Part shown: positions 3,871-53,595 of the stretch, in pieces | Numbering within the stretch: position 1 is the stretch's first letter | Layout of the letters: the number at the start of each line of letters is the position of its first letter | Assembly: GCF_024502345.1 (NCBI RefSeq) | Contig: NZ_JALDNN010000001.1 | Length of the DNA: 64,000 bases | Source of the DNA: Escherichia coli | GTDB lineage: Bacteria; Pseudomonadota; Gammaproteobacteria; Enterobacterales; Enterobacteriaceae | Direction: 5' to 3' (one strand) | Notes under the pieces: generated by a model | The model's database searches: none | What the model was told of the DNA's origin: nothing | Seen by the model: only the letters and a program-made list of their open reading frames with translations | Program-made: the position numbers and the translations under genes

Positions 3871-6135
<2,265 letters not shown>

Positions 6136-6231
6136 GTTAGACGTTCTTTAAAAATAAGGAAATGTTTTAATTTAGTTGGTAGATTGTTGATGCGGAATAA
6201 ATTTGTTTAAAAACAGTTATGTATGCTTAGT
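6136..6231 (+). promoter_or_regulatory. AT-rich CRISPR leader immediately upstream of first repeat
   Basis: AT-rich tract (…taaaaataaggaaatgttttaatttagttggtagattgttgatgcggaataaatttgtttaaaaacagttatgtatgcttagt) abutting repeat 1; orientation consistent with repeat sense strand. Confidence 0.55.
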
Positions 6232-6443
6232 GTGTTCCCCGCGCCAGCGGGGATAAACCGGGGCCGACGGTCGCAGTATTGGACCATTTCAAGTGTTCCC
6301 CGCGCCAGCGGGGATAAACCGACTCTTACATGCTTAATCAGATTCTGGCGGATGTGTTCCCCGCGCCAGCGGGGATAAACCGGGCGCACTGGATGCGATG
6401 ATGGATATCACTTAGAATTCCCCGCCCCTGCGGTAGAACTCCC
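6232..6443 (+). CRISPR. Short type I-E CRISPR array: 4 repeats (last degenerate), 3 spacers of 32 bp
   Basis: 29-bp repeat GTGTTCCCCGCGCCAGCGGGGATAAACCG at 6232-6260, 6293-6321, 6354-6382; degenerate terminal repeat gaattccccgcccctgcggtagaactccc at 6415-6443; spacers 6261-6292, 6322-6353, 6383-6414. Confidence 0.92.
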
Positions 6444-6463
6444 AGCTCCCATTTTCAAACCCA

Positions 6464-7501
6464 TCAAGACGCCTTCGCCAGCTCCTTCACCAACGGTAGC
6501 ATTATCCGCATAACGTCACGGCAGCGACGTTCTATTCTTCCAGGAAGTGCCTTATCAATATGCTGTTGATTATCCAGTCTTACGTCATGCCAGCTATTTC
6601 CCGCAGGGAATGCGGCTGTTTTTGCGCGTTGCTGATAACCATCCTTATTCCCAAGATTCCAGTTAGTCGCTTCCACCGAAAGTACAGCAATGCCCGCTTT
6701 GTCGAATATTTCTGCGTCATTACAACACCCAGTGCCTTTCGGATAATTTTTATTCAGACTCGGATTGGTCGTTGCGGCTATTCCGTGACTGCGCGCAATT
6801 GCCAGCGCCCTGTCGCGCGTTAATTTCCTTACTGATTCAGGGGTTTTTACACCGCTGTTGAAATACAATTTATCGCCAACAATTAAGTTATCGAGATTAA
6901 TCACCAGCAGCGTATTTTTCTTTTCGGTGTCACTCATCCGCTTGAGTAAATTCTCAGCGCCTAATTTCCCTTCCTCTTCGCCGCTGGTCGCCACAAATCG
7001 AATACCATACTCGGTAGGCGTATTTTTCAGGCGTTCTGCCAGTTCCAGCATGACACCTAAACCTGCGGCGTTATCATCCATTCCTTGTAACGTCAGCCCG
7101 CCGAGATTGGCATCGGCGTCAGCATCGCTCAGCGGGGCGTAAGTATCCAGATGCGCCATAATGATGATCTGCTGCGGCGCTTTGCCTTCATGAGCGGCAA
7201 TCACCGTACTTCCCGTCACGTTATGCCAGCTCTTACGATTATCGCGGGCGGTATAAATATACCGACTATTAAATGTCCGAATATCACTGCGATAACCCAT
7301 TTGCTGAAACTGTTGGCGAATATAATCGGCAGATAACATTTCTGCAGGAGTTCCGGTCATGCGTCCCGGAAAGAAAGTAGCAATATGTCGTGCCTGAGTA
7401 TTAGCAAAATCGCCAGGTTTAGGTGACGAGGCGTGTACGGGGAGAATAAAGCATACGCCGAGCGCCAGGGCAGCGGTACGGTGGCGCAATGCGGAAAACA
7501 T
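6464..7501 (-). CDS. iap: Alkaline phosphatase isozyme conversion aminopeptidase
   Basis: 345-aa ORF with signal peptide (MFSALRHRTAALALGVCFILPVHA), M28-type peptidase motifs; conserved position next to CRISPR array. Confidence 0.88.
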   Translation of the reverse strand: MFSALRHRTAALALGVCFILPVHASSPKPGDFANTQARHIATFFPGRMTGTPAEMLSADYIRQQFQQMGYRSDIRTFNSRYIYTARDNRKSWHNVTGSTVIAAHEGKAPQQIIIMAHLDTYAPLSDADADANLGGLTLQGMDDNAAGLGVMLELAERLKNTPTEYGIRFVATSGEEEGKLGAENLLKRMSDTEKKNTLLVINLDNLIVGDKLYFNSGVKTPESVRKLTRDRALAIARSHGIAATTNPSLNKNYPKGTGCCNDAEIFDKAGIAVLSVEATNWNLGNKDGYQQRAKTAAFPAGNSWHDVRLDNQQHIDKALPGRIERRCRDVMRIMLPLVKELAKAS

Positions 7502-27315: not shown

Positions 27316-29877
27316 TTACACCAGGCTCTTCAAGCGATAAATCCATTCCAGCGCCTGACGCGGAGTCAGTGAATCCGGGTCCAGGTTTTCCAGAGCTTCG
27401 ACCGCTGGCGAGGTTTCTTCCGGTACTGACAGCAAAGACATTTGCGTACCATCCACTTGCGTAGCGGCGGCGTTCGGCGAAATGCTTTCCAGCTCACGCA
27501 GTTTTTGCCGTGCGCGCTTAATCACCTCTTTTGGCACGCCTGCCAGAGCTGCAACCGCCAGGCCGTAGCTTTTGCTCGCCGCGCCATCCTGCACGCTATG
27601 CATAAAGGCAATGGTGTCTCCGTGCTCCAGCGCATCGAGATGCACGTTGGCGACGCCTTCCATTTTTTCCGGTAACTGGGTCAGCTCGAAATAGTGGGTA
27701 GCAAACAGCGTCAATGCCTTAATCTTATTCGCCAGATTTTCTGCGCACGCCCACGCCAGCGACAGACCATCGTAAGTGGACGTTCCACGCCCGATCTCAT
27801 CCATCAATACCAGACTGTACTCGGTGGCGTTATGTAAAATATTGGCGGTTTCGGTCATCTCCACCATAAAGGTTGAGCGCCCGGACGCCAGGTCATCTGC
27901 CGCGCCTACGCGGGTAAAGATGCGATCGATAGGTCCAATCTCGACTTTTTGTGCCGGTACATAGCTGCCGATGTAGGCCATCAGCGCAATCAGTGCGGTC
28001 TGGCGCATATAGGTACTTTTACCGCCCATGTTCGGACCGGTGATGATCAACATGCGGCGCTGCGGCGACAGATTCAGCGGGTTGGCGATAAATGGCTCAT
28101 TCAGTACTTGTTCAACTACCGGATGGCGACCTTCGGTAATGCGAATGCCCGGTTTATCAATGAAGGTCGGGCAGGTGTAGTTCAGGGTATAGGCCCGTTC
28201 CGCCAGGTTCACCAGCACGTCGAGTTCCGCCAGCGCGCTCGCGCTCTGTTGCAACGCTTCCAGATGCGGCAACAGCAGGTCGAACAACTCTTCATAAAGC
28301 TGTTTTTCCAGTGCCAGTGCTTTGCCTTTTGAGGTGAGAACTTTATCTTCGTACTCTTTTAGCTCTGGAATGATGTAGCGCTCGGCGTTTTTCAGCGTCT
28401 GGCGACGCATGTAGTTGATGGGTGCCAGATGGCTTTGCCCACGGCTGATTTGAATGTAGTAGCCGTGCACCGCATTAAAGCCAACTTTCAGCGTGTCCAG
28501 GCCGGTACGTTCACGCTCGCGGACTTCCAGACGCTCCAGATAATCGGTCGCGCCGTCAGCCAGCGCGCGCCACTCATCCAGCTCTTCGTTATAGCCCGAT
28601 GCGATAACACCACCGTCGCGTACCAGCACCGGCGGTGTGTCGATGATTGCTCGCTCCAGCAGATCGCGCAGCTCGGCAAACTCGCCCATCTTCTCACGTA
28701 GCGCCTGTACCGGTGCACTATCGACAGTTTCTAACTGCGCACGCAGCTCCGGCAGTTGCTGGAAAGCGTGGCTCATACGGGCCAGATCGCGTGGGCGAGC
28801 AGTTCGTAAAGCCAGACGTGCCAGAATACGTTCCAGGTCGCCGACCTGACGCAGTACCGGCTGTAGCCCGGCGGTGAAATCCTGCAATGCGCCAATAGTT
28901 TGCTGGCGCTCAAGCAACACGCGGGTATCGCGCACTGGCATATGCAGCCAGCGTTTCAGCATACGGCTGCCCATCGGCGTGACGGTGCAGTCGAGCACAG
29001 AAGCCAGCGTATTTTCCGCACCACTCGCCAGGTTCTGGGTGATTTCCAGATTACGACGCGTCGCGGCATCCATAATGATGCTGTCCTGCTCACGTTCCAT
29101 GGTGATGGAACGAATATGCGGCAGAGTCGTACGTTGGGTATCTTTCGCATACTGCAACAGACAACCGGCAGCACAAAGTCCGCGCGGCGCGTTCTCGACG
29201 CCAAAACCGACCAGATCGCGAGTGCCAAATTGTAGATTCAACTGCTGGCGCGCGGTGTCGATTTCAAACTCCCACAGCGGGCGACGGCGCAGGCCGCGAC
29301 GGCCTTCAATTAACGACATTTCAGCAAAATCTTCTGCATACAGCAGTTCCGCAGGATTAGTGCGTTGCAGTTCTGCCGCCATCGTTTCCCGGTCAGCCGG
29401 TTCGCTCAGGCGAAAACGACCGGAACTGATATCCAGCGTCGCGTAGCCGAAACCTTTGCTGTCCTGCCAGATAGCCGCCAGCAGGTTGTCCTGACGCTCC
29501 TGCAACAGGGCTTCATCGCTGATGGTGCCTGGCGTAACGATACGCACAACTTTGCGCTCAACCGGACCTTTGCTGGTCGCCGGATCGCCAATTTGTTCGC
29601 AGATGGCAACGGACTCGCCCTGATTCACCAGTTTGGCGAGGTAGTTTTCCACCGCATGGTAGGGAATCCCCGCCATCGGGATCGGCTCTCCCGCCGAAGC
29701 ACCGCGTTTGGTCAGTGAAATATCCAGCAGTTGCGACGCGCGTTTTGCGTCGTCATAAAACAGTTCATAAAAATCACCCATCCGGTAAAACAGCAGGATC
29801 TCGGGATGCTGGGCTTTCAGCTTGAGATACTGCTGCATCATGGGGGTGTGCGAGTCTAAATTTTCTATTATACTCAT
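27316..29877 (-). CDS. mutS: DNA mismatch repair protein MutS
   Basis: 853-aa ORF; Walker [10 protein letters not shown], conserved N-terminal mismatch-binding region. Confidence 0.97.
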
Positions 29878-29971
29878 CGGCTTGTGATGTCCATTCTCTT
29901 AATTTTTAATGAGTTAGTGGTTTTTATGGTTATCATTATGTTTCACGTTGTCTCATCGAATATCATGAAAT

Positions 29972-29989
29972 CCTACATTTAAATGTAGG
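29972..29989. repeat. 18-bp perfect palindrome at the mutS-proximal island junction
   Basis: cctacatttaaatgtagg is its own reverse complement; overlaps the 11-bp sequence tgtaggttaaa (29984-29994) repeated at 50655-50665. Confidence 0.5.
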
Positions 29990-30073
29990 TTAAAGTGTAG
30001 CTTGCCAACCTATAGCTTGGTAAAATATGGGCACATACAGCACAACCTATATTTATGTTCATGACTGCATAAG

Positions 30074-31375
30074 GTGCATGATAACGGAGTCTTTATGGCA
30101 GGAAAACAAGAGGGAAAGCCACTTTCGTTTAAAGGGGTAGAAATGATGAAGCCAGGCGATAAAGATAAGGCTGATGTAGGCGAAAATCGTGGCTTACGTG
30201 TCTCCTGTGGTGCAACTGGTGTTAAGTCTTTTTTCTACCGTTACACAAGTCCTCTGACTGGCAAACTTGCTCAGGTTAAAATTGGTAACTTCCCGCAGAC
30301 TTCTCTCGCCGCTGCACGTCTTAAACTTCATGAATTAAAGCTCCTCCGGCAGGAAGGTCGGTGCCCTGCGTCAGAGCTTAAGCAAGATAAGCTCCAGCGT
30401 GCGATTGAAGCTGAACAGGCTAAGATCCCTGAATTGACCGTACAGGGATTAGTTGAACTGTATCTTACTGAACGTATTGAGGATCGTAAAACGAAGGACG
30501 GGAAGGTCATTCCCGGTGCCAGAAAACCGAAAGGACAGGCTGAGGTTCGTCGTACTCTCTATGGTGACGCTGTTAAAAGTTTAGGAACCCGGAATGCTGC
30601 TGAGATAACGCGCCAGGATGTTATTAATTTAATCAATGGCATTGTAGCTCGGGGCGCAACCGTACAGGCAGGGAATGTACTGAGAGAACTTTCACTCGCA
30701 TATGAATTTGCAATTGGACTTGGGCGCTTTGATGACAGTTTTGCGAATCCAGCGCTGTTAGCAAAATCTAGCTTACGACAGACCAGAATCAAGCTCACAA
30801 ATGGACGTGGAACACGAGTACTGAGTGAGGACGAGCTTGCAAAATTCCTTAAATGGCTACCGGGTTCGGCTTACACGCCAACGATCAAAAACGTGTTACG
30901 TCTGACTCTCTGGACCGGGTGTCGTACCGGTGAAGTCTGCAATATGGCATGGAAGGATGTTGATCTTGAAAAAGGCACCATTCATCTTAGAGAAACCAAG
31001 ACTGGAGTAGAGCGTTACGTTCAGTTATCGGATCAAGCGATCGACTTTCTCAAGGTTCTACGCCTTACCTCTGACAAATATCTATTCCCTTCACAAGCCA
31101 CTAAAAAGCCAATCCAGCAGAAGTATCTAACTGAAAACTCATGGCGTTTACGTGAAAGCGGTCAAATGCTTGATATACCTCATTGGACGCCGCATGATCT
31201 GCGTCGTACAGTACGAACGGGCTTATCTCGTTTGCAGTGTCCAAATGAGGTGGCTGAGGCCGTATTGGGGCATACACGAGGCGGTGTTGAAGGGATTTAT
31301 AATCTGTATAAGTATGATGCTGAGTGTAGGAAGTGGTTGCAGGTGTGGGCGGATTATTTAGATACTTTAACGTAA
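30074..31375 (+). CDS. Tyrosine-type integrase, P4-like family
   Basis: 433-aa ORF; C-terminal catalytic region with R...HDLRRT...LGH...Y pattern (TPHDLRRTVRTGLSRL, LGHTRGGVEGIYNLY). Confidence 0.85.
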   Translation: MHDNGVFMAGKQEGKPLSFKGVEMMKPGDKDKADVGENRGLRVSCGATGVKSFFYRYTSPLTGKLAQVKIGNFPQTSLAAARLKLHELKLLRQEGRCPASELKQDKLQRAIEAEQAKIPELTVQGLVELYLTERIEDRKTKDGKVIPGARKPKGQAEVRRTLYGDAVKSLGTRNAAEITRQDVINLINGIVARGATVQAGNVLRELSLAYEFAIGLGRFDDSFANPALLAKSSLRQTRIKLTNGRGTRVLSEDELAKFLKWLPGSAYTPTIKNVLRLTLWTGCRTGEVCNMAWKDVDLEKGTIHLRETKTGVERYVQLSDQAIDFLKVLRLTSDKYLFPSQATKKPIQQKYLTENSWRLRESGQMLDIPHWTPHDLRRTVRTGLSRLQCPNEVAEAVLGHTRGGVEGIYNLYKYDAECRKWLQVWADYLDTLT

Positions 31376-43922: not shown

Positions 43923-45458
43923 ATGAAGCAAGAAACGATCGTTCAAAAAATTTGGAGTCTCTGCAACATACTAAGAGGTGATGGTATCACCTATTATCAG
44001 TATGTTTCTGAACTAAGTTATTTGCTTTTTCTGAAGATTGCTCAAGAAAATGGTTCAGAAAAGCTGATACCTCAAGGCTACCGCTGGGCTGATCTTGAAT
44101 CCCATCCAGAAGCAGGATTATTAGGGTTTTATCAAGAGATGCTCACTCACTTGGGTGCGCATGTTAAAAATGAAATCATAAGAGAGATTTACGCATTCCC
44201 TACAACCGTTTTCTCCCATTCTGAAAATTTAAAAGCTGTTGTAGATGGTATTTCGAAAATAGAGTGGCACCAAGTAGGAAAAGATGGGTTTGGCGACCTC
44301 TATAGTGGTTTAATTGATAAAAGTGCTCAAGATACGCGTTCGGGAGCCGGGCAGTATTTTACTCCACGCTCTTTAGTTAACACGATAGTGAGATTGATAA
44401 AACCGAGTCTTGGCGAATTGATTCAAGATCCTGCGTCAGGAAGTGGTGGCTTCTTAGTTTCTGCTGACAGCTATATTCGAGTCAAATATTCACGAAAAGA
44501 GTATCAATTGAACCCTCCTAAATATCAAGGAGTGGAAATAGAGAAAAATACTCGTCGAATTTGCTTAATGAATACCTTTTTACATGATTTAGATGCACAC
44601 ATTATCTATGGTGATGCACTGACTGATGACGTAGCAGGGTTGGATGAAGCCGATGTAATCTTAGCCAATCCCCCTTTTGGCAATAAGGCTGGGGGACAAC
44701 GTCCTTTACGTAACGATATTCCATTCCCCAATACAAATAAGCAATTAGCTTTTTTGCAGCATATTTATTTGAAGCTTAAAGCTGGCGGTCGAGCTGCTGT
44801 AGTGGTACCCGATAATGTACTATTCGAATCTGGGGTTGGTACCGATGTACGTCGTGACTTAATGAATAAGTGCAATCTTCATACTATCTTGCGACTGCCC
44901 ACTGGTATTTTTTACGCCCAAGGTGTTAAAACCAATGTTCTGTTCTTTACTAAAGGCTCTGACAAAGATAAATATCAACAAGATAGCTGCACTGAGAACG
45001 TCTGGGTATACGATCTACGTACCAATATGCCAAGTTTTGGTAAACGTACACCCTTCGGTAATTCAGATATTGGCTTTGCGGCAGAAGATTTCGGTACAGA
45101 TCAGCACCTCGGCGCGTTCGAAAAAGTGTTCGGAGATAATCCAGACGGCACCAGCAAGCGCACCGAAGGTGAATACAGCTTTGGTGCAACAGATATTGAA
45201 ATTGATACAGAAGCAGTAGAAGAAAACCTGAATGTTGATGAACAGCTAGCCCATTCTCGCTGGCGCTACTTCAGCCGTGAGTGGATAGCCAATAATAAAG
45301 GCGATTCGCTGGATATCTCATGGTTAAAAGACAAAAAGAGTGTCGATGCGGCTGGTTTATCCGAGCCAAACGTTCTCGCTCGCGAGGCAAAAGAAGAATT
45401 AGAAGCAGCATTGAGTGAGCTGGATAGTTTATTGATCGCATTGGAAGGGGCCGAATAA
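43923..45458 (+). CDS. hsdM: Type I restriction-modification N6-adenine DNA methyltransferase subunit
   Basis: 511-aa ORF with GQYFTPR, DPASGSGGFL (SAM binding) and NPPFG catalytic motif. Confidence 0.9.
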   Translation: MKQETIVQKIWSLCNILRGDGITYYQYVSELSYLLFLKIAQENGSEKLIPQGYRWADLESHPEAGLLGFYQEMLTHLGAHVKNEIIREIYAFPTTVFSHSENLKAVVDGISKIEWHQVGKDGFGDLYSGLIDKSAQDTRSGAGQYFTPRSLVNTIVRLIKPSLGELIQDPASGSGGFLVSADSYIRVKYSRKEYQLNPPKYQGVEIEKNTRRICLMNTFLHDLDAHIIYGDALTDDVAGLDEADVILANPPFGNKAGGQRPLRNDIPFPNTNKQLAFLQHIYLKLKAGGRAAVVVPDNVLFESGVGTDVRRDLMNKCNLHTILRLPTGIFYAQGVKTNVLFFTKGSDKDKYQQDSCTENVWVYDLRTNMPSFGKRTPFGNSDIGFAAEDFGTDQHLGAFEKVFGDNPDGTSKRTEGEYSFGATDIEIDTEAVEENLNVDEQLAHSRWRYFSREWIANNKGDSLDISWLKDKKSVDAAGLSEPNVLAREAKEELEAALSELDSLLIALEGAE

Positions 45459-47143
45459 TGATTGAGACTTCTTTACCATGGCTGAGAGTCCAGCTCGGTG
45501 ACGTAGTTCCCTATGGTAAAACCGAAAAATGCGAATTATCTGACGTTACAGGTAACACTTGGGTACTTGAGCTCGAAGATATAGAAAAAGATAGCTCGAA
45601 GATCATACAACGGCTAGATGCAACTGCACGACCATTTAAAAGCACGAAAAATAAATTCCGTAAAGGAGATGTCCTTTACGGGAAACTGCGACCTTACTTA
45701 AATAAAGTTGTCATTGCGGACAGTTCTGGCGTTTGTTCGACTGAAATCATGCCTCTAAATGCTGAGCCATTTATTGACAATAGGTACCTCTTTTACTGGT
45801 TGAAAACTGAAGTTTTTATTGATTTTGTAAATTCTGTAAGCTACGGCGTGAATATGCCTCGACTCGGAACTAAAGATGGATTAGCTGCTCCATTTATTGT
45901 AGCTCCGCTTGCTGAGCAAAAAGTTATTGCCGATAAACTTGATACCTTGTTGGTGCAGGTGGATGCCATTAAGGCTCGCCTCGAACGCATCCCAGAAATC
46001 CTAAAAACCTTCCGCCAATCGATCCTCACCGCCGCAGTTAGTGGGAAGTTGACGGAGGGATGGCGATTAAAGAATAAACTCAGTAATGTAGTTGTAAAAC
46101 AAAATATCAATCTACCAAAATTAACCCCAAATGAACACTACCTCGAACATGTTGAAGGATGGCAATGGGTAAGACTGGGTTCTGTTGTTAGTCTAATAAA
46201 CGGCGATAGAGGAAAAAACTACCCTAATAAAAATGAATATGTTAAGGATGGAATACCGTTCATAAATACAGGGCATATTAATTCAGATGGAACACTTTCT
46301 GATGAACGCATGAATTTTATTTCCAAGGATAAGTTTGACTCCTTAAGTGGGGGAAAGACGAAATCAACAGATCTAGTTTATTGCCTCCGAGGTGCAACTA
46401 TGGGAAAAACTGCACGTGTCCACTACAAAATAGGGGCAATAGCATCCTCTCTTGTAATTATCCGACCGAGTGATTACATAGACAGAGATTTCGCATATTA
46501 TTTTCTTATTAGCCCTCCGGCTAAAGATTTAATTAATGAATTTGATAACGGATCCGCTCAGCCAAATCTATCTGCAAAGAGTTTGTCTACATACCCTTTA
46601 CAACTCCCTTCGTTTAAAGAACAAATCGAAATCGTCAGTCGCGTCGAAGAAATGTTCAACTTTTCATCTCTTGCCGAAGCAAAAGCTAAAACTGCATTAG
46701 AGCGTGTCAATAAAATTACTCAATCAATCCTAGCCAAAGCTTTCCGAGGCGAACTCACTGCAGATTGGCGCGCCGCCAACCCGGATTTAATCAGCGAAGA
46801 GAAAAGTGCTGAAGCTTTGCTGGAAAAAATTAAGGCAGAACGTGAAGCCATCGAAAAACAACCTAAGCCAACACGTTCCGTTATAAAAAAAAATACAGGT
46901 GGCCGTATGAGTAAACAGATTATCAAAGTGGTTGAAGCGCTAAAACAAGCGGGAAAACCGCTTAGTGGCCAACAATTGTTAGCTGCAGCTGGTTACCCTA
47001 GTGATAGCAGTACTGAGCAACTGGAACAGTTCTTTCTGGATATACGTGACGCTCTTACCATAGAAGAGTCCATTGTAAAGCTTGAGCGCGGTGGCGACAG
47101 TCAAGATTGGTTCGCCTTGGCTAATAATAAAGCAAAGAACTAA
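45458..47143 (+). CDS. hsdS: Type I restriction-modification specificity subunit (two target-recognition domains)
   Basis: 561-aa ORF overlapping hsdM stop (ATAATG); repeated conserved segments (IPEILKTFRQSIL..., ITQSILAKAFRGELT) typical of HsdS central and C-terminal regions. Confidence 0.8.
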   Translation: MIETSLPWLRVQLGDVVPYGKTEKCELSDVTGNTWVLELEDIEKDSSKIIQRLDATARPFKSTKNKFRKGDVLYGKLRPYLNKVVIADSSGVCSTEIMPLNAEPFIDNRYLFYWLKTEVFIDFVNSVSYGVNMPRLGTKDGLAAPFIVAPLAEQKVIADKLDTLLVQVDAIKARLERIPEILKTFRQSILTAAVSGKLTEGWRLKNKLSNVVVKQNINLPKLTPNEHYLEHVEGWQWVRLGSVVSLINGDRGKNYPNKNEYVKDGIPFINTGHINSDGTLSDERMNFISKDKFDSLSGGKTKSTDLVYCLRGATMGKTARVHYKIGAIASSLVIIRPSDYIDRDFAYYFLISPPAKDLINEFDNGSAQPNLSAKSLSTYPLQLPSFKEQIEIVSRVEEMFNFSSLAEAKAKTALERVNKITQSILAKAFRGELTADWRAANPDLISEEKSAEALLEKIKAEREAIEKQPKPTRSVIKKNTGGRMSKQIIKVVEALKQAGKPLSGQQLLAAAGYPSDSSTEQLEQFFLDIRDALTIEESIVKLERGGDSQDWFALANNKAKN

Positions 47144-47152
47144 GGACAGCCC

Positions 47153-48757
47153 ATGAAAGTCGACAAACTGCATATTCGCTCACGCTTTAAAAATCTTGAA
47201 AACGTGAAAGTGGACTTTGACGAAAACCACCTGATGACCGTTATCGTAGGCCGTAATGGTTCCGGTAAGTCCAATGTTCTAGAAGCCTTGGTTGCTATAT
47301 TTCGCAATCTTGATTTAGGTGAAGCACCAACATTTTCTTATGAGTTGGACTATCAACTAGGTGAGGAAGCCGGGGTTAAGTGGTATGACGTCAAGGTTGA
47401 TGCAGATCCAGACCGCGGAACGCTAGCAAAGCAATACCAAGTTTATGTCAAAGATAAACACGATAGCAAAGCGGATTTCAAGCTTACACCCTTCTCCAAA
47501 GTGAAACGCGATAAGAAAACCAAACAAGCAGAGTTTCTTCCTAACTTTCTATTCGCCTATTATTCCGGACCATCGGATAGATTAGAAAAATACTTTCGAA
47601 AGCATCGTGATGATTATTATCGAAACCTACTCTACAACAAGCTTGACTTGAAAGCAGATATTCGTTCTCTATTTTATGCCAAACCCTATCACAGTCAGTT
47701 TGTGCTCTTGGCATTTTTCCTGTCAGATGAAAATAGTCCTCAGCGCAAGTTTATTAAGGAGCATTTGGGTATTGAGGGATTGGACAGTATTCATTTTGTG
47801 ATGCGCCAACCTGAGTGGGCTAAGCTGAAGGGGGAATTATTCTGGGGAGCACAAGGTGTAGTTCGTCGCTTTTTGGATGAATTGATACAGCACACATTGT
47901 CACCGATAAAAGTAACTCGTCAAGAAGATACGTCGTTAACGGGTAGTTATATTCGAAATGAGTTCTTTCATCTATTTTTACCTGACGTAAACGCACTACA
48001 TGAATTTGCTAGAGATCTCAGTGCTGACGAACTGTTTAAAATGCTTGAAAGCACTCTGCTGTCAGAAATTATCTCTGAGGTTAGCATACGGGTGAAAGTA
48101 ACCAGCAGCAGGGAGCCTCTCACTTTCCGTGAACTTAGCGAAGGTGAACAACAGCTATTAACCGTATTGGGCTTACTCTGGTTCACCGGTGGTAAAGATT
48201 CCTTATTTTTACTCGACGAACCTGATACCCACCTTAATCCGTCATGGGCCGTTAAATACCTTAAATTCCTGCGTGAATTCGTACCCAATCATGAAACCAG
48301 CCATTTACTAATGGTCACACACCATCCTTTAGCTATTGCCGAGCTGAAGAAACAACAAGTACAAGTCATGTGGCGTGACGATGAAAATAATGTTCACTCA
48401 CAAGAGCCTTATATAGATCCTCGTGGCGCTGGCTTTATGGCCACACTTACTGAGATTTTTGGTCTAAATACAACACTGGATCTGGAAACCCAAAAGTTAT
48501 TGGACGATAGGAACGAACTAGCCCATATCGAAAATCGAACAGAAGATCAGAACAACCAGCTTGACCTTCTTAATGATGAGTTAAACAGACTAGGATTTTC
48601 ACTTGAAAACAGGGACCCGTTATACAGCGAGTTTCTTTTAGCATGGCAAGACCTAAGATACAGCGATAAACCACCACTAACACCGGATAAAGCGGCTCAG
48701 AGACGAGCTGCTATGAAAAATGTAATTGAGGCGCTTAAAGCTAAGAAGGGTTGCTAA
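47153..48757 (+). CDS. ABC-type (AAA_15/21-like) ATPase, Septu PtuA-like
   Basis: 534-aa ORF; Walker A VGRNGSGKSNVLEAL, signature LSEGEQQLL, Walker B LFLLDEPDTHLNP, H-loop VTHHP; starts 10 bp after hsdS. Confidence 0.7.
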   Translation: MKVDKLHIRSRFKNLENVKVDFDENHLMTVIVGRNGSGKSNVLEALVAIFRNLDLGEAPTFSYELDYQLGEEAGVKWYDVKVDADPDRGTLAKQYQVYVKDKHDSKADFKLTPFSKVKRDKKTKQAEFLPNFLFAYYSGPSDRLEKYFRKHRDDYYRNLLYNKLDLKADIRSLFYAKPYHSQFVLLAFFLSDENSPQRKFIKEHLGIEGLDSIHFVMRQPEWAKLKGELFWGAQGVVRRFLDELIQHTLSPIKVTRQEDTSLTGSYIRNEFFHLFLPDVNALHEFARDLSADELFKMLESTLLSEIISEVSIRVKVTSSREPLTFRELSEGEQQLLTVLGLLWFTGGKDSLFLLDEPDTHLNPSWAVKYLKFLREFVPNHETSHLLMVTHHPLAIAELKKQQVQVMWRDDENNVHSQEPYIDPRGAGFMATLTEIFGLNTTLDLETQKLLDDRNELAHIENRTEDQNNQLDLLNDELNRLGFSLENRDPLYSEFLLAWQDLRYSDKPPLTPDKAAQRRAAMKNVIEALKAKKGC

Positions 48758-49599
48758 TGATTTACATCAAACGAGACGCCACGCTAATTCCTGCAAAGGT
48801 ACTTGCCGTTGCCCAACGCGCGCAAGATGCTCTGGAACAGCTTCCCGCTGAGCAGAGGAAAGGTTTCATCAAGAAAAAGTCTCATATATGGAGAGGCTTT
48901 TCTAAATACCTAGCCCAAATGTCTTATGGGAAGTGCTGGTATTCAGAAGCTAAAGATGCAGGTGCAAATTTCGATGTAGATCATTTCCGACCTAAGGCTG
49001 AAGCAAAGAGGACAGAAGATTTGGTCGATGCGGATGGTTATGCGTGGCTCGCATTTGATTGGGAAAACTTCAGGCTTTCTGCTCAGAATTGTAACCGTTT
49101 AAACACAGATGAATCAGGTAACACGGTAGGAAAAGGCAGTTGGTTCCCGCTGCTAGATGGTAGCCCTAAAGCCTGCTGGGATAATCGCTGTATTAACGAT
49201 GAAAAAGTCACTTTGCTAGACCCTGTAGTTAAAGCTGACCTCACCTATATAGACTACGACGACAGCGGTAGATTTACTTCAAGTAAGCTCTGCGTTGGTA
49301 AGGCAGCATTAAGGGTTAGGCAATCTGGCATTATTTATGGCCTCAATTTGGAGAAAATGCGTGAAGCACGATTTCAGGTTATGAGGGAGGCTAAAGAACT
49401 CCTTGAAACTATTCACCAATGTGCCGAAGACTTAGACCCTCTGGGCAATGAAGCCCCCATGAGAACTATTGAACGACAAATAGAACAACTCCAATCCAGA
49501 ACCCGGGCCGATGCACCATTTAGCCGTGCAGTAAGAACACAACTGATAAAACTCGGTGCAGAGGATTACTTAATTGATCGAAGTTTGGATGCAGCCTAG
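48757..49599 (+). CDS. HNH-motif nuclease-like protein, Septu PtuB-like
   Basis: ATG 48757 overlaps stop of upstream ATPase (TAATG); motif KCWYSEAKDAGANFDVDHFRPKA ... FRLSAQNCNRLN consistent with an HNH endonuclease fold. Confidence 0.6.
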   Translation: MIYIKRDATLIPAKVLAVAQRAQDALEQLPAEQRKGFIKKKSHIWRGFSKYLAQMSYGKCWYSEAKDAGANFDVDHFRPKAEAKRTEDLVDADGYAWLAFDWENFRLSAQNCNRLNTDESGNTVGKGSWFPLLDGSPKACWDNRCINDEKVTLLDPVVKADLTYIDYDDSGRFTSSKLCVGKAALRVRQSGIIYGLNLEKMREARFQVMREAKELLETIHQCAEDLDPLGNEAPMRTIERQIEQLQSRTRADAPFSRAVRTQLIKLGAEDYLIDRSLDAA

Positions 49600-49770
49600 T
49601 TGTTTATCTTTCTGATAATGGGGTTGTCCGTTAGCCAACCTGATATATTGCTTAAAGGGCTTGCCCGATGAGTGAGCCTTTGACGGGGCTTGATATGAAT
49701 TTGCGTAGAAGTTTTGGTATACTGTTTAAACGATGTCTTTCAGCCCAGATTCAACTTCTTAGGAGTGATT

Positions 49771-49941
49771 ATGAGCACCCACAAAAAAACTCAGGCAAGC
49801 TACGCTAAGCCATCTCGTGCTGACATTGTTCGCTCAGTAGCAACATCTACGGCTGTTGAAACAGGGCAGTCCTCCGCGAAGATCGAAGCTTCACTTGAAG
49901 CCACGCGCAAAAAATTTGCTCATTTGCGTCTTGCGGTTTAA
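49771..49941 (+). CDS. Small hypothetical protein (56 aa)
   Basis: ATG 49771 preceded by aggagtg RBS; convergent with and overlapping the 3' end of fic by 4 bp. Confidence 0.3.
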   Translation: MSTHKKTQASYAKPSRADIVRSVATSTAVETGQSSAKIEASLEATRKKFAHLRLAV

Positions 49942-50555
49942 TCCCTTCTTAATGCTTCTCGCACCCAGTGTTTCATCGGCTCATAGTCCATTGATATGCC
50001 AGCATGGATGGCCGATATATACTGAGTTTTGTTTTGCTCCCAGCTTTGATAATCCAGCGGTTTGTATCCTCCCTGAACGGCCATCACGTCGGCTAGCAGT
50101 CGCGACAGGCGTCCGTTTCCCTCTCTGAATGGATGGATAAGTATTATCTCTACATGGGTTATGGCGATAGCGGTGATGAGTTGTTCTTCGTCCATGCCGC
50201 TACACGGTGTGTATTGAGCCAGATACTTAGTGTCGAATTCGTTCAGCAGTTTTGGCACCTGCGCTGAGGGGGCAAACATAAAGCCGCCTTTGCTAATATT
50301 CACCGCTCTTTCTTGTCCAGCCCACTCGTAGATGTTACCTAACCAGCGGCGATGCCAGCTTTTTAGCATGGCTACGCTGAGCTGTCCTTCCGGGAACTGC
50401 TCTTCAAAAACAGACTGGTAGAGTTGTTCTAACAGGACAAGTTCAGCCTCATCCATCTCATCAGAAGTCGCAATCCCCAGCTTATTAGCCAAAACCTGCT
50501 CGCCAGAGTCTTTCTCATACTGGCCTTCACTGCTGGATACATGGTATCGGCTCAT
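49938..50555 (-). CDS. Fic/Doc-family protein (probable AMPylase/toxin)
   Basis: 205-aa ORF with canonical Fic motif HPFREGNGRLSR. Confidence 0.85.
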   Translation of the reverse strand: MSRYHVSSSEGQYEKDSGEQVLANKLGIATSDEMDEAELVLLEQLYQSVFEEQFPEGQLSVAMLKSWHRRWLGNIYEWAGQERAVNISKGGFMFAPSAQVPKLLNEFDTKYLAQYTPCSGMDEEQLITAIAITHVEIILIHPFREGNGRLSRLLADVMAVQGGYKPLDYQSWEQNKTQYISAIHAGISMDYEPMKHWVREALRRD

Positions 50556-51053
50556 GGAGATGCCCTGTGTTATTAGAAGGAGGGGAAAACAGAGAGAGTA
50601 TAACGCTGGATGAGTACAGCAAACAATATTCTTAAAATCAGATAGTTACAAAAGTGTAGGTTAAAATGTATTTTTTATTCTCTGGTGGAAAATAATCTTT
50701 AATAATCAGCATTAACACACCAATGCATCATGGGCGTATGGGCGTCGAAATTTTCTATTGCACTCATGGGGTTATGTCCGGTTCCCTGATATTAAATGGG
50801 GTGTGATGGTTTTTATTTTCGTTGTAATCACATAAGGCGCACATGATACCGGAGTTAATCATTTCAGGGGAAGAAGCGAACGGCGAGTTCTTGATGTTGG
50901 TTCCGGGAAAGATGCTGTTTTGCAGCTTTTGCGTGATGCTTATGAAGCAAGTACGCAAAATTGCGTCGGTTGAATAAACCTCCTCCTTCAGAGCCATAGT
51001 CCCCTTTCAAATTAAGTTGTAGTATAAATACACCTTAAGAGTATGGAGGCAGT

Positions 51054-51407
51054 ATGTCCGGCAAGCGTATCTCTCGTGAAAAACTGACGATTAAAAAAAT
51101 GATCGATCTTTATCAAGCGAAATGCCCGCAGGCGTCAGCGGAGCCGGAGCATTACGAGGCGTTGTTTGTTTACGCGCAAAAGCGGCTGGATAAATGTGTG
51201 TTCGGCGAAGAGAAACCAGCCTGTAAGCAGTGTCCGGTGCACTGTTACCAGCCTGCAAAGCGTGAAGAGATGAAACAGATTATGCGTTGGGCCGGGCCGA
51301 GAATGCTGTGGCGTCATCCGATCTTAACCGTGCGTCATCTCATCGATGACAAGCGTCCGGTGCCAGAACTGCCGGAAAAATATCGTCCGAAAAAACCTCG
51401 TGAATAG
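51054..51407 (+). CDS. ygbA: Uncharacterized protein YgbA
   Basis: 117-aa ORF MSGKRISREKLTIKKMIDLYQAKCPQ... with CxxC pairs; conserved position next to fhlA. Confidence 0.88.
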   Translation: MSGKRISREKLTIKKMIDLYQAKCPQASAEPEHYEALFVYAQKRLDKCVFGEEKPACKQCPVHCYQPAKREEMKQIMRWAGPRMLWRHPILTVRHLIDDKRPVPELPEKYRPKKPRE

Positions 51408-51443: not shown

Positions 51444-53522
51444 TTAAATCAATGCCGATTTATCAATTCCCAGTCGCTTCATCCGTGACAGCAGGGTCGT
51501 GCGTTTCAGCCCCAGACGTTGCGCAGCGCCTTTAGGCCCGGCAACCACGCCGTTAGTTTCTTTCAGCACGCGAACAATCAACTGATATTCATCTTCGCCC
51601 TCCTGAGCGACAACCGTTGCGGCAGGCGGCGTTTCAGGCTCCGGTAAAGCAATATCTGGCAATGACAACTGCAGCACGTTGCCGCGTGTTAGCAATACCG
51701 CGCGCTCAATGACGTTTTCCAGTTCGCGTACGTTACCCGGCCACTCCATATTGCTCAAGGTGCGCAACGTCTCGGCAGGAATGCTGTCGATATTGCGCCC
51801 CAGACGACGGGCAATTTTGAAGGTAAAGGCTTTCGCCAGCAGCGGAATATCTTCCGGACGCTCGCGTAGTGGCGGAAGGTGAATCGGGAATACGTTCAGG
51901 CGGTAATAGAGATCGCTACGGAACTCACGGTCGGCGACCATTTTTTTCAGATCGCGGTTAGTCGCGGCAATTAAACGTACGTCCGTCTGAATGATTTTGT
52001 TGCTGCCGAGACGTTCAAACTCCTGTTCCTGCAATACACGCAGCAACTTCGGCTGTAACTCCAGTGGCATATCGCCCACTTCGTCGAGGAACAGGGAGCT
52101 TTTATCCGCCAGTTCAAAACGACCAATGCGCTGGGCGCTGGCACCGGTAAAAGCCCCACGCTCATGACCAAACAGATCGCTTTCCAGTAATCCGGCAGGC
52201 ATCGCCGCGCAGTTCATTTTGACCATGCGGCGATTATTACGCCCACTGAGATTATGGATCGCGCGGGCAATCAGCTCTTTACCCGTGCCAGTTTCACCGA
52301 GGATCAGCACGGTACTGTCACTTTGCGCCACCATTTCAACTTGTTTAAGCACGCTGTACATGGCTTCGCTGCGGCCAATAATCTCGCCAAATTCACTATC
52401 AACATTGTTGAGCTGCTCGGTCAGGGCGAGGTTTTCATCAACCAGCCGTTCTTTCAGACGATGGATTTCCTGATAGGCGAGGGCGTTATCGACAGCGATT
52501 GCCACACGTTCGGCAATCTGGCGCAGTAAATTCAGATTGGTAGTGGTAAACACTTTCTCTTCGCATTGCGCCAGTTTCAGCACGCCCAGCATGGTGTCGC
52601 CAGACATCAGCGGTAACAGGCACAAGGTTTGAATCTGGTTGCCCCAGGTGTCGAACAACATGCGTTCATAGGGGGCTAAATCGTCCCGCTCGTGGAGATT
52701 GATCAGCAGCATCTCTTTACTTTTGAACACGCGTTCGGTGAGGGTTCCGGCTTCATCGACTTCGCTCTGTTCGTGGGCGGGATGTTGTTTATCAAGATAG
52801 TGAGTGGAGTAGATGTTGAGTTTGTTTTTACGGTGGCTGCGTAAGACAATGCTGATATCGTCAATGTCGAAATAGTAATGGATTTCTTTGGCGACTTCGC
52901 TGACCAGTTCGTCCATATCCAGGCGGGAAAGCACCGCGTTGGTGATGGCGACCAGGATGCGGAAGTTATCGCGTTCCCGGCATAACAACTCATAGTCGAC
53001 ATTGTTAACGACGCGACTCTGGATTTGTTCGGTGATGACAGAAACGATCTGCGTAAATGTTTGCAGACGATTGAACTCTTTTTCGCTCCAGGGGCGATCG
53101 TCATAACGAATAAATTCACAGCCACCAAAAATATGCCCTTCCGCCGCCAGTGGCATCAGGCAATAGTGACCAAATTTTGGGTATAGCCCACCTGCGGCCA
53201 GCTGCGGCCAGGTTTCACAAAATTCTTCGTAACTGCAATGCAGCGTATCAGGGCGCGACAAAATGCTGCGTACCGGACCGTGTGCCAGAACAGTTTCGTC
53301 TTCATATTTAATGGGGGTGTCTTTTTCACGCGATGCGTAATAAGACGCACGTTGAGTCTGCGCTTGCCACAACACAATAGCCGCGTTGTCGGCGAGCGCA
53401 GAACGCTTTACCAGTTGCGAAAGAGCCTCACACAGCGAGGCCAGATCGGGCTGCTGCAATAGTGTCCGAGTGATGTCGAACAACCCTTGCTGTCCGAGAT
53501 CACTCATCGGTGTATATGACAT
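51444..53522 (-). CDS. fhlA: Formate hydrogenlyase transcriptional activator (sigma-54 enhancer-binding protein)
   Basis: start set at MSYTPMSDLGQQGLF (53522); GAF domains plus AAA+ sigma-54 interaction domain (GETGTGKE, GAFTGA) and C-terminal HTH. Confidence 0.95.
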   Translation of the reverse strand: MSYTPMSDLGQQGLFDITRTLLQQPDLASLCEALSQLVKRSALADNAAIVLWQAQTQRASYYASREKDTPIKYEDETVLAHGPVRSILSRPDTLHCSYEEFCETWPQLAAGGLYPKFGHYCLMPLAAEGHIFGGCEFIRYDDRPWSEKEFNRLQTFTQIVSVITEQIQSRVVNNVDYELLCRERDNFRILVAITNAVLSRLDMDELVSEVAKEIHYYFDIDDISIVLRSHRKNKLNIYSTHYLDKQHPAHEQSEVDEAGTLTERVFKSKEMLLINLHERDDLAPYERMLFDTWGNQIQTLCLLPLMSGDTMLGVLKLAQCEEKVFTTTNLNLLRQIAERVAIAVDNALAYQEIHRLKERLVDENLALTEQLNNVDSEFGEIIGRSEAMYSVLKQVEMVAQSDSTVLILGETGTGKELIARAIHNLSGRNNRRMVKMNCAAMPAGLLESDLFGHERGAFTGASAQRIGRFELADKSSLFLDEVGDMPLELQPKLLRVLQEQEFERLGSNKIIQTDVRLIAATNRDLKKMVADREFRSDLYYRLNVFPIHLPPLRERPEDIPLLAKAFTFKIARRLGRNIDSIPAETLRTLSNMEWPGNVRELENVIERAVLLTRGNVLQLSLPDIALPEPETPPAATVVAQEGEDEYQLIVRVLKETNGVVAGPKGAAQRLGLKRTTLLSRMKRLGIDKSALI

Positions 53523-53595
53523 TTTGTTCTTCCAGGAAAGCACCGCAAAGCGGTGCAAAAGGTCATTGACTAACTATAGGAGATTTAGAATTTTA

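What the first reader, a model, noticed from the sequence alone, without database searches (positions are those of the whole stretch)
49771..50555. Fic-domain protein at the island's ygbA-proximal end with a convergent, overlapping small ORF
The minus-strand 205-aa ORF carries a perfect HPFREGNGRLSR Fic motif. Fic toxins are usually controlled by an upstream antitoxin or an internal inhibitory helix. Here the only nearby small gene (56 aa, 49771-49941, good RBS) is convergent and overlaps fic's 3' end by 4 bp, so its transcript would be antisense to the fic 3' end. This is an unusual arrangement for toxin control.
Basis: partly seen in the sequence, partly recalled or inferred. Interest (0 to 1): 0.35.

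Follow-up and report, generated by a model that had tools for sequence, protein, structure and literature searches.

The report
Fic toxin with convergent AntY-type antitoxin
The small gene that runs head-on into the end of this E. coli fic gene encodes the toxin's protein antitoxin, a relative of the published FicY-AntY pair of Yersinia, so the layout is real and conserved but of a known kind.

Summary
A 205-aa Fic ORF (49938-50555, minus strand) has an intact HPFREGNGRLSR motif. A 56-aa ORF (49771-49941, plus strand) converges on it, and their stop codons overlap by 4 bp.

The interpretation needs correcting. The small ORF is a conserved protein (dN/dS about 0.1) with 144 cluster representatives. 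Its only invariant residues besides one leucine are S26 and E30, in the motif S-T-A-V-E-T-G. This is the Fic inhibitory-helix signature [S/T]xxxE[G/N], with T in place of G/N.

The same STAIET motif in a downstream convergent ORF was published for AntY, which blocks FicY of Yersinia pseudotuberculosis in vitro (Lu et al. 2020). The window's proteins are about 46% identical to an AntY-like/FicY-like pair.

In an unbiased scan using Fic as the query, 79 of 80 loci had the small gene convergent and immediately 3' of fic. The one exception ends at a contig edge. None of 98 Fic proteins carries a conserved internal inhibitory motif.

The pair is therefore a class I Fic toxin-antitoxin module of the FicY-AntY type. 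It lies at the far end of a 20.9-kb island integrated into the 5' end of mutS. RNA-level antisense coupling remains possible but is untested and is not needed to explain the control. This is a new member of a known kind, of modest interest.

The parts
49938..50555 (-). fic: 205-aa class I Fic (FicT/FicY-like) AMP-transferase toxin
   Evidence: It matches Pfam Fic at 4.8e-19 and PADLOC PDC-S04 model PDLC04839 at 1e-101 over the full length. It is 46% identical over 202 aa (E=9e-65) to the Fic partner of an AntY-like gene. The closest solved structures are Fic-1 (8wt0), VbhT, EfFIC and NmFic.
50100..50135 (-). Catalytic Fic signature HPFREGNGRLSR (residues 141-152)
   Evidence: Read directly from the sequence. 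The motif is intact in 97 of 98 family members.
49771..49941 (+). antY-like gene: 56-aa antitoxin predicted to fold as a two-helix hairpin
   Evidence: Homologues were found. The invariant residues are S26, E30 and L54. dN/dS is about 0.1. It is 46% identical over 37 aa (E=4e-9) to the 52-aa AntY-like protein P0405. AlphaFold2 predicts helices at residues 16-31 and 35-49. It has no Pfam, NCBIfam or PADLOC match.
49846..49866 (+). Inhibitory-helix motif S26-T-A-V-E30-T-G, at the C-terminal end of helix 1
   Evidence: S and E are invariant across 54 diverse family members. The motif is equivalent to S22TAIET27 of AntY (PMC7479194). It occupies the same position, the end of the first helix, as SRRLEG in EcFicA (PMC5033356).
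49938..49941 (.). 4-bp overlap of the two stop codons (TTTAA), with no room for a terminator
   Evidence: Read from the sequence. The identical overlap occurs in 43 of 76 Fic-queried pairs. No terminator-like site is found nearby.
49761..49765 (+). Shine-Dalgarno sequence AGGAG of the small gene
   Evidence: Seen in the sequence. The purine core is conserved in the 92%-identical E. coli variants.
49715..49723 (+). Candidate extended -10 promoter element (TGgTATACT) for the small gene; inferred only
   Evidence: It is conserved (TGGTATAMT) in three diverged E. coli alleles. The consensus scan did not call it because there is no -35 element.

Best explanation
This is a class I Fic toxin-antitoxin pair of the FicY-AntY type. 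The 205-aa Fic protein is an AMP-transferase with a complete catalytic motif and no built-in inhibitory helix. The convergent 56-aa gene encodes a two-helix hairpin protein. The end of its first helix carries S26xxxE30. By analogy with VbhA, EcFicA, AntF and AntY, this helix inserts into the Fic active site. There the glutamate pairs with the last arginine of the Fic motif and prevents productive ATP binding, so the toxin stays off while the antitoxin is present. The likely targets are the ATPase subunits of topoisomerase IV or gyrase (ParE/GyrB), as shown for FicY and Fic-1. The two genes have separate promoters because they converge. Shown here: both genes are real, they are always linked tail to tail, S and E are invariant, Fic lacks an internal motif, and both proteins are homologous to an AntY-like/FicY-like pair. 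Inferred: physical binding, the salt bridge, the target, and toxicity.
For: 1. Motif. S26 and E30 are, with L54, the only invariant residues in 54 diverse homologues. The published AntY motif is S22TAIET27 in a downstream convergent ORF, and AntY protein inhibited FicY AMPylation of ParE in a dose-dependent way (PMC7479194).
2. Homology. The window's small protein is 46% identical over 37 aa (E=4e-9) to the 52-aa AntY-like protein P0405. P0405 has S22TAIET27, and its termini match the primers printed in that paper's supplement. The window's Fic is 46% identical (E=9e-65) to the 204-aa Fic that converges on P0405 with the same 4-bp overlap.
3. Linkage. In a Fic-queried scan, 79 of 80 loci have the small gene convergent and adjacent, across Enterobacterales, Pseudomonas, Alcaligenaceae, Comamonadaceae and others. 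Pairwise identities of the two proteins correlate at r=0.78.
4. No self-inhibition. No conserved [ST]xxxE[GN] motif occurs in 98 Fic sequences.
5. Structure. An AlphaFold2 model of a Fic-linker-small fusion, built with a paired alignment, has pTM 0.82, and the small protein has pLDDT 93-96. Foldseek puts the Fic part closest to class I toxins VbhT, EcFicT and Fic-1 (TM 0.79-0.83). Some alignments to class III EfFIC run to 241-249 columns on a roughly 200-residue target. This implies that EfFIC's C-terminal inhibitory helix is matched by the docked small protein.
6. Selection. dN/dS is about 0.1 for both genes.
7. Decay pattern. Some loci show fic broken or degraded beside an intact small gene, as expected for toxin-antitoxin pairs.
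Against: The motif departs from the canonical [S/T]xxxE[G/N]: T follows E, and G comes one position later.
The small protein shows no detectable sequence or profile similarity to YhfG/EcFicA (hhalign probability 0.3%). It matches no Pfam family.
The hairpin model alone finds no significant structural match.
I could not retrieve the deposited AntY and FicY sequences (ACA66912, ACA66911). Their identity with the 52-aa/204-aa subfamily is inferred from the motif numbering, the printed primers and a compatible protein mass.
I had no model coordinates, so the E30-arginine contact was not seen directly.
Some distant small-protein homologues have no adjacent Fic.
No expression or toxicity data exist for this locus.
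Confidence: 0.85

Rival explanations
1. Antisense or transcriptional-interference control. The transcript of the small gene reads into the 3' end of fic, and fic's transcript reads into the small gene. RNA duplex formation or polymerase collision, rather than the small protein, sets toxin expression.
For: The stop codons overlap by 4 bp, and no terminator-like site lies between or near them. Even relatives with 110-182 bp gaps show no convincing intergenic terminator. Convergent orientation is kept in 76 of 76 pairs across two proteobacterial classes, while spacing drifts from -21 to +182 bp. This would fit selection on orientation itself.
Against: The small gene is a protein under purifying selection (dN/dS about 0.1), and its invariant residues are the two that define Fic inhibition. 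AntY protein alone inhibits FicY in vitro (PMC7479194). No Rfam family or other RNA signal was found in the region. Conserved orientation may simply reflect inheritance of a compact two-gene unit. As the sole mechanism this is unlikely. As an added regulatory layer it is untested.
Confidence: 0.1
2. The pair is primarily an anti-phage abortive-infection system. Phage infection depletes or sequesters the labile antitoxin, and freed Fic AMPylates topoisomerases and halts the cell. This concerns the biological role and is compatible with the mechanism proposed above.
For: Fic matches the PADLOC defence-candidate model PDC-S04 at 1e-101. The pair sits beside Septu-like PtuA/PtuB plus type I M and S subunits here, and beside a full type I restriction-modification system in other E. 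coli. Relatives lie next to integrases on islands.
Against: PDC-S04 is only a computational candidate. One native-host test of a PDC-S04 gene found no defence (bioRxiv 10.1101/2024.12.20.629700). In Serratia, Xenorhabdus and Pragia the pair stands alone next to mutS, with no other defence genes. Its position at an island end fits an island-stabilising addiction module equally well.
Confidence: 0.3
3. The small ORF is unrelated to Fic (a chance ORF or an independent gene), and Fic is regulated some other way, such as self-inhibition or lack of activity.
For: The small protein has no match in curated family libraries. It has no detectable homology to YhfG. A few distant homologues lack a Fic neighbour.
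Against: Linkage is 79 of 80 loci. The S...E pair is invariant. Both genes are under purifying selection and their divergences correlate. Fic has no internal inhibitory motif. FicY-AntY is a published precedent.
Confidence: 0.03

Closest known systems
FicY-AntY of Yersinia pseudotuberculosis YPIII (Lu et al. 2020, Front Microbiol 11:2084, PMC7479194)
   Same: Both have a class I Fic of about 205 aa with a downstream convergent small ORF that carries S-T-A-(I/V)-E-T. AntY-like pairs in my data show the identical 4-bp stop overlap. Identity to the AntY-like subfamily is about 46% for both proteins.
   Different: The window's pair belongs to a sister subfamily (56 aa versus 52 aa, with different termini). 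It sits at the integrase-distal end of an island inserted in mutS, whereas the AntY-like fic genes I retrieved lie directly downstream of an integrase gene. There is no biochemistry for the E. coli pair. The deposited FicY and AntY sequences themselves were not retrieved.
Canonical FicTA modules: VbhT-VbhA, EcFicT-EcFicA (YhfG), Fic-1-AntF (PDB 3SHG, 5JFF, 8WT0)
   Same: All are class I. A separate small helical protein supplies the inhibitory S/T...E helix, and the motif sits at the end of its first helix. The Fic folds are close (Foldseek TM 0.79-0.83). Fic-1-AntF and VbhT target GyrB and ParE.
   Different: In those systems the antitoxin gene lies upstream in one operon. Here it is downstream and convergent, with its own promoter. 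The motif has T, not G/N, after E. There is no detectable sequence homology to YhfG and no match to any Pfam family.
PADLOC candidate defence gene PDC-S04
   Same: Fic matches model PDLC04839 over its full length at 1e-101. It also lies in a defence-island neighbourhood.
   Different: PDC-S04 is catalogued as a single gene. The data here show that this clade is an obligate two-gene unit. Defence activity is unproven.
Class III Fic proteins (NmFic, EfFIC)
   Same: They are similar in size and core fold and are among the best sequence and structure matches. Their inhibitory helix follows the Fic core, which is where the docked small protein sits in the fusion model.
   Different: In class III the helix is part of the same polypeptide. 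Here Fic ends before it, and the helix is encoded on the opposite strand.

Membership tests
Fic/Fido AMP-transferases | Fic domain with the signature HxFx(D/E)GNGRxxR | tested here: met
   HPFREGNGRLSR is encoded at 50100-50135. Pfam Fic matches at 4.8e-19. The motif is intact in 97 of 98 relatives.
Class I Fic (FicT toxins) | No inhibitory [S/T]xxxE[G/N] helix within the Fic polypeptide | tested here: met
   A regular-expression search over 98 family members found only sporadic single occurrences at varying positions. The window's Fic has none.
Class I Fic (FicT toxins) | A separate adjacent small protein supplies the inhibitory helix | tested here: met
   The 56-aa neighbour has invariant S26 and E30 at the end of helix 1. 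It is adjacent in 79 of 80 loci.
Class I Fic (FicT toxins) | The antitoxin binds Fic, and its glutamate contacts the last arginine of the motif | tested here: inconclusive
   The fusion model has pTM 0.82 with a confidently placed small protein, and the extended EfFIC alignments are suggestive.
Canonical inhibitory motif (Engel et al. 2012) | [S/T]xxxE[G/N] exactly | tested here: not met
   The sequence is S-T-A-V-E-T-G. T follows E in nearly all members, and G is shifted by one position. S and E are kept. AntY has the same variant and is functional.
FicTA operon architecture | The antitoxin gene lies immediately upstream of the toxin gene on the same strand | tested here: not met
   The gene is downstream, on the opposite strand, with a 4-bp stop overlap. 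All 76 complete pairs are convergent.
FicY-AntY type | A downstream convergent small ORF carrying S-T-A-I/V-E-T | tested here: met
   compared with PMC7479194.
FicY-AntY type | Sequence homology of both proteins to FicY and AntY | tested here: met
   The small protein is 46% identical (E=4e-9) and Fic is 46% identical (E=9e-65) to the AntY-like/FicY-like pair P0405 and L110. The small-protein profile also reaches that subfamily (P0354 and P0377, E about 1e-4 against 1.84 billion proteins). Caveat: equating P0405 with AntY rests on the motif numbering and the printed primers, not on the accession sequence.
FicY-AntY type | AMPylation of ParE that is blocked by the small protein | not testable with these tools
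   This needs biochemistry.
YhfG (PF10832) / VbhA antitoxin families | Sequence membership of the small protein | tested here: not met
   There is no relevant Pfam hit even at E<=1. hhalign of the family profile against YhfG gives probability 0.3%. YhfG itself matches PF10832 at 5e-24, while five AntY-family members do not.
PADLOC PDC-S04 | Match to the PDC-S04 profile | tested here: met
   PDLC04839 matches at 1e-101, residues 1-203 of 205.
PADLOC PDC-S04 | Anti-phage activity | not testable with these tools
   The only report found is negative, for a PDC-S04 gene tested in its native host.
Type I (antisense RNA) toxin-antitoxin systems | The antitoxin is a non-coding antisense RNA | tested here: not met
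   The partner is a protein-coding gene under purifying selection with a strong ribosome-binding site. No Rfam match was found. Whether the transcripts overlap was not testable.

The most novel reading that the evidence does not exclude
The strictly conserved tail-to-tail layout leaves no room for a terminator, so each mRNA must read into its partner's gene. The toxin-to-antitoxin ratio might then be set by polymerase collision or by cleavage of the 3' RNA duplex. Any change in the relative firing of the two promoters, for example when a phage or stress shuts down host transcription, would flip the module on. That would be a regulatory logic not described for protein-protein toxin-antitoxin systems. 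It would also explain why orientation is invariant while spacing drifts.
Probability: 0.15. Interest if true: 0.6.

Novelty: new member of a known kind. Interest (0 to 1): 0.28.

Why it matters
The result assigns a function to a widespread 'hypothetical protein' family of 52-56 aa that is absent from Pfam, NCBIfam and PADLOC. It shows that the PADLOC candidate PDC-S04 of this clade is an obligate two-gene toxin-antitoxin unit. Tests that clone fic alone will therefore be toxic or misleading. It extends the single published FicY-AntY example to a clade spanning gamma- and betaproteobacteria, with an invariant convergent design. For E. coli itself the pair is rare, found in 39 of 5426 complete genomes and complete in 12.

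Tried and rejected
1. Pfam, NCBIfam and PADLOC scans of the small protein returned nothing relevant.
2. A profile search of the small family against PDB sequences gave only a chance hit, MIC60 at E=0.7.
3. hhalign of the small family against E. coli YhfG found no homology.
4. A Foldseek search with the small-protein model alone gave nothing below E=2.6. A two-helix hairpin is too simple to be discriminating.
5. An Rfam scan of 49400-51100 at E<=1 gave no hits.
6. The promoter and terminator consensus scan found no terminator at the gene junction and no canonical promoter for either gene. The same held for relatives with wider gaps, apart from two weak stem-loops inside the small gene of L069.
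7. I tried to find the real AntY by looking up small proteins with S at position 22. P0269, P0377 and P0354 turned out to be orphan or differently partnered homologues. The AntY-like subfamily was then reached through a dedicated search.
8. I considered a class II reading of S48VFEEQ in Fic and rejected it, because neither S48 nor E52 is conserved.
9. Several dN/dS rows are meaningless, because of saturation or offset starts, and were ignored.

Full report
**Observation**

The window is E. coli. Five complete genomes are 100% identical over 49600-50700. The minus-strand ORF 49938-50555 encodes a 205-aa protein with a Pfam Fic domain (E=4.8e-19). Its signature HPFREGNGRLSR is encoded at 50100-50135. 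The plus-strand ORF 49771-49941 encodes 56 aa behind an AGGAG ribosome-binding site. The two stop codons share four bases, 49938-49941 (TTTAA). RefSeq annotates both genes at the same positions, as 'hypothetical protein' and 'Fic family protein'. The description is accurate.

**Is the small ORF a real gene?**

Yes.
- It has more than 140 close homologues across Enterobacterales, at 73-98% identity among those listed, all unnamed.
- A profile search of 1.84 billion cluster representatives finds 144 family members.
- In comparisons where synonymous sites are not saturated, dN/dS is 0.07-0.17 in most comparisons (one at 0.33). This is the same range as fic, at 0.06-0.13.
- Between the 92%-identical E. 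coli alleles, nearly all differences fall at third codon positions.
- No Pfam, NCBIfam or PADLOC model covers it.

**What does it encode?**

In an alignment of 54 diverse members, the only invariant residues are S26, E30 and L54. T27, A28, T31, L42 and A55 are nearly invariant. The core reads R-(S/A)-V-A-(S/T)-S-T-A-(I/V)-E-T-G-Q. AlphaFold2 predicts a two-helix hairpin (residues 16-31 and 35-49), with S26...E30 at the end of helix 1.

That is the position of the SRRLEG inhibition motif in EcFicA (PMC5033356), and AntF has the same two-helix shape (PMC13327609). The motif is the Fic inhibitory signature [S/T]xxxE[G/N], except that T follows E and G comes one residue later.

**Fic has no inhibitory helix of its own**

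No conserved [ST]xxxE[GN] motif occurs in 98 family members. The S48VFEEQ stretch of the window's protein is not conserved. The closest solved structures by sequence and by fold are the class I toxins Fic-1 (8WT0), VbhT and EcFicT, and the class III proteins EfFIC and NmFic. The window's Fic ends before the point where class III proteins carry their C-terminal helix.

**Linkage**

I searched one genome per species with a Fic alignment. I then looked for the small protein in six-frame translations of the 80 loci returned.
- 79 loci have it on the opposite strand immediately 3' of fic. The single exception ends 70 bp after fic.
- Of the 76 complete pairs, all are convergent. 43 have exactly the 4-bp overlap, and the rest range from a 21-bp overlap to a 182-bp gap.
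- The loci span Enterobacterales, Morganellaceae, Pseudomonas, Alcaligenaceae, Comamonadaceae, Lysobacterales, Methyloprofundus and others.
- Pairwise identities of the two proteins correlate at r=0.78.
- Where one partner has decayed, it is fic. Examples are a split fic in some Serratia and a C-terminal remnant in a metagenomic contig.

**Published precedent**

Lu et al. [quoted passage not shown] The motif is S22TAIET27. They show that AntY blocks FicY AMPylation of ParE in a dose-dependent way, and that FicY inhibits topoisomerase IV.

I could not fetch the accession sequences. However, the primers printed in the supplement for 'YPK_0608' encode MTKKTVH(S/R)... and ...VGLAR*. These are the termini of a 52-aa subfamily (P0405, P0413 and others) whose members have S22TAIET27 exactly. 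P0405 converges on a 204-aa Fic with the same 4-bp overlap. That Fic is 46% identical to the window's Fic (E=9e-65), and P0405 is 46% identical to the window's small protein over the core (E=4e-9). The FicY mass implied by the paper, about 23.6 kDa, fits a protein of about 205 aa. The window's pair is therefore a sister subfamily of FicY-AntY.

**Structural support**

I built a fusion of Fic, a 30-residue linker and the small protein, modelled with a paired alignment of 34 loci. It gave pTM 0.82, with pLDDT 93-96 over the small protein and a disordered linker. Foldseek matched the Fic part to VbhT, EcFicT and Fic-1 at TM 0.79-0.83. Several alignments to EfFIC run to 241-249 columns on a roughly 200-residue target. 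That is possible only if the alignment crosses the linker and matches EfFIC's C-terminal inhibitory helix to the docked small protein. This is indirect evidence, because I had no coordinates.

**Mechanism**

The best-supported reading (confidence about 0.85) is a type II, class I Fic toxin-antitoxin pair. The small protein inhibits Fic by inserting its S...E helix into the active site. The likely target is ParE/GyrB. Binding, the target and toxicity are inferred.

**Antisense idea**

There is no terminator-like site at the junction, nor in relatives with wider gaps. There is no Rfam match. Overlapping 3' transcripts are therefore plausible, and the invariant orientation is notable. Still, nothing requires an RNA mechanism, and protein-level inhibition has been shown for AntY. 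I give it 0.1 as the main mechanism and keep it as the most novel reading that the evidence does not exclude.

**Context**

The pair lies inside a 20.9-kb island, not beside it. A 53-nt direct repeat at 29834-29886 and 50724-50776 bounds the island. The left copy supplies the current first codons of mutS ([15 protein letters not shown]). The right copy is the displaced 5' end that looks like the native one (MSAIENFDAHTPMM, then out of frame). The integrase is at the left end (30074-31375), followed by cargo that includes a methylase, a specificity subunit and Septu-like PtuA/PtuB. antY-fic are the last genes before the right repeat.

The Fic protein matches PADLOC's candidate PDC-S04 at 1e-101. 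One native-host test of a PDC-S04 gene found no defence. Whether the pair defends against phage or stabilises the island is open.

**Verdict**

But the partner is a protein antitoxin of a published type. This is a new member of a known kind, of modest interest.

Noticed in passing
window 29834-29886 and 50724-50776: A 53-nt imperfect direct repeat (81% identical) bounds a 20.9-kb island integrated into the 5' end of mutS. The left copy now provides MutS codons 1-15 ([15 protein letters not shown]). The right copy is the displaced 5' end that looks like the native one (MSAIENFDAHTPMM, then out of frame). The island therefore replaces the start of a mismatch-repair gene.
   Followed up: partly
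window 29981-29999 and 50652-50670: The 19-nt repeat AARTGTAGGTTAAARTGTA lies upstream of the integrase gene and upstream of fic, at the two island ends. A similar TGTAGGTTAAA element occurs in Pragia (L009 3937-3967 and 6885-6915). It may be an integrase arm-type or regulatory site.
   Followed up: no
L006 5879-5939/6940-7003; L012 5715-5827/6879-6991; L009 3831-3890/6958-7017: In Serratia, Xenorhabdus and Pragia the antY-fic pair sits next to mutS. It is flanked by direct repeats of 60-113 nt only 1.06-1.16 kb apart (3.1 kb in Pragia), with no integrase. This looks like a mini-island holding only the toxin-antitoxin pair.
   Followed up: partly
window 43923-49599: A type I-like methylase (43923-45458) and specificity subunit (45458-47143) have no R subunit. 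They are followed directly by Septu-like PtuA (47153-48757; also matches TIGR04435 'restriction system-associated AAA ATPase') and PtuB (48751-49599). Other E. coli carry a complete type I system at the same place (L002).
   Followed up: partly
L004, L005, L008 (Serratia), positions 6165-6824: In these strains fic is split into 113-aa and 80-aa pieces by a premature stop, while the identical 55-aa small gene stays intact. Sister strains (L006, L007) keep fic whole.
   Followed up: partly
L103 4001-4920; L104; L022; L105; L106: Distant homologues of the small protein occur without a 205-aa Fic. One converges on a 56-aa plus 192-aa (faint Zeta-toxin match) gene pair. Others sit next to an AIM24 gene, next to ygiB-like genes, or at an island end beside an integrase. 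These may be orphan antitoxins or partners of other toxins.
   Followed up: no
L108, L110-L112, positions 4156-6091: In the AntY-like subfamily, fic lies 4 nt downstream of a P4-type integrase gene on the same strand. It may be co-transcribed with it, and antY converges from the cargo side.
   Followed up: no
L115 3001-3439 (E. coli FDAARGOS_1251; also hits H15-H20): About 26 other E. coli genomes keep only an unannotated 440-bp remnant, 85% identical to the 5' part of fic and its upstream region. In the one locus inspected (L115) IS100 lies beside it, among other IS fragments.
   Followed up: partly
PMC7479194 supplementary primer table: The primers labelled FicY / YPK_0608 encode MTKKTVH... 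and ...VGLAR*. These match the 52-aa AntY-like protein, not a Fic protein, so the label or the table row appears to be swapped.
   Followed up: partly
L009 4722-5732; L012 7040-8092: Pragia and Xenorhabdus carry a second, larger Fic protein with HTH domains (336-350 aa) right beside the antY-fic pair.
   Followed up: no
window 51444-53558: RefSeq marks the fhlA gene (labelled 'flhA' in the record) as frameshifted in the identical strain ET490. In the window it reads as one 704-aa ORF from an upstream TTG.
   Followed up: no
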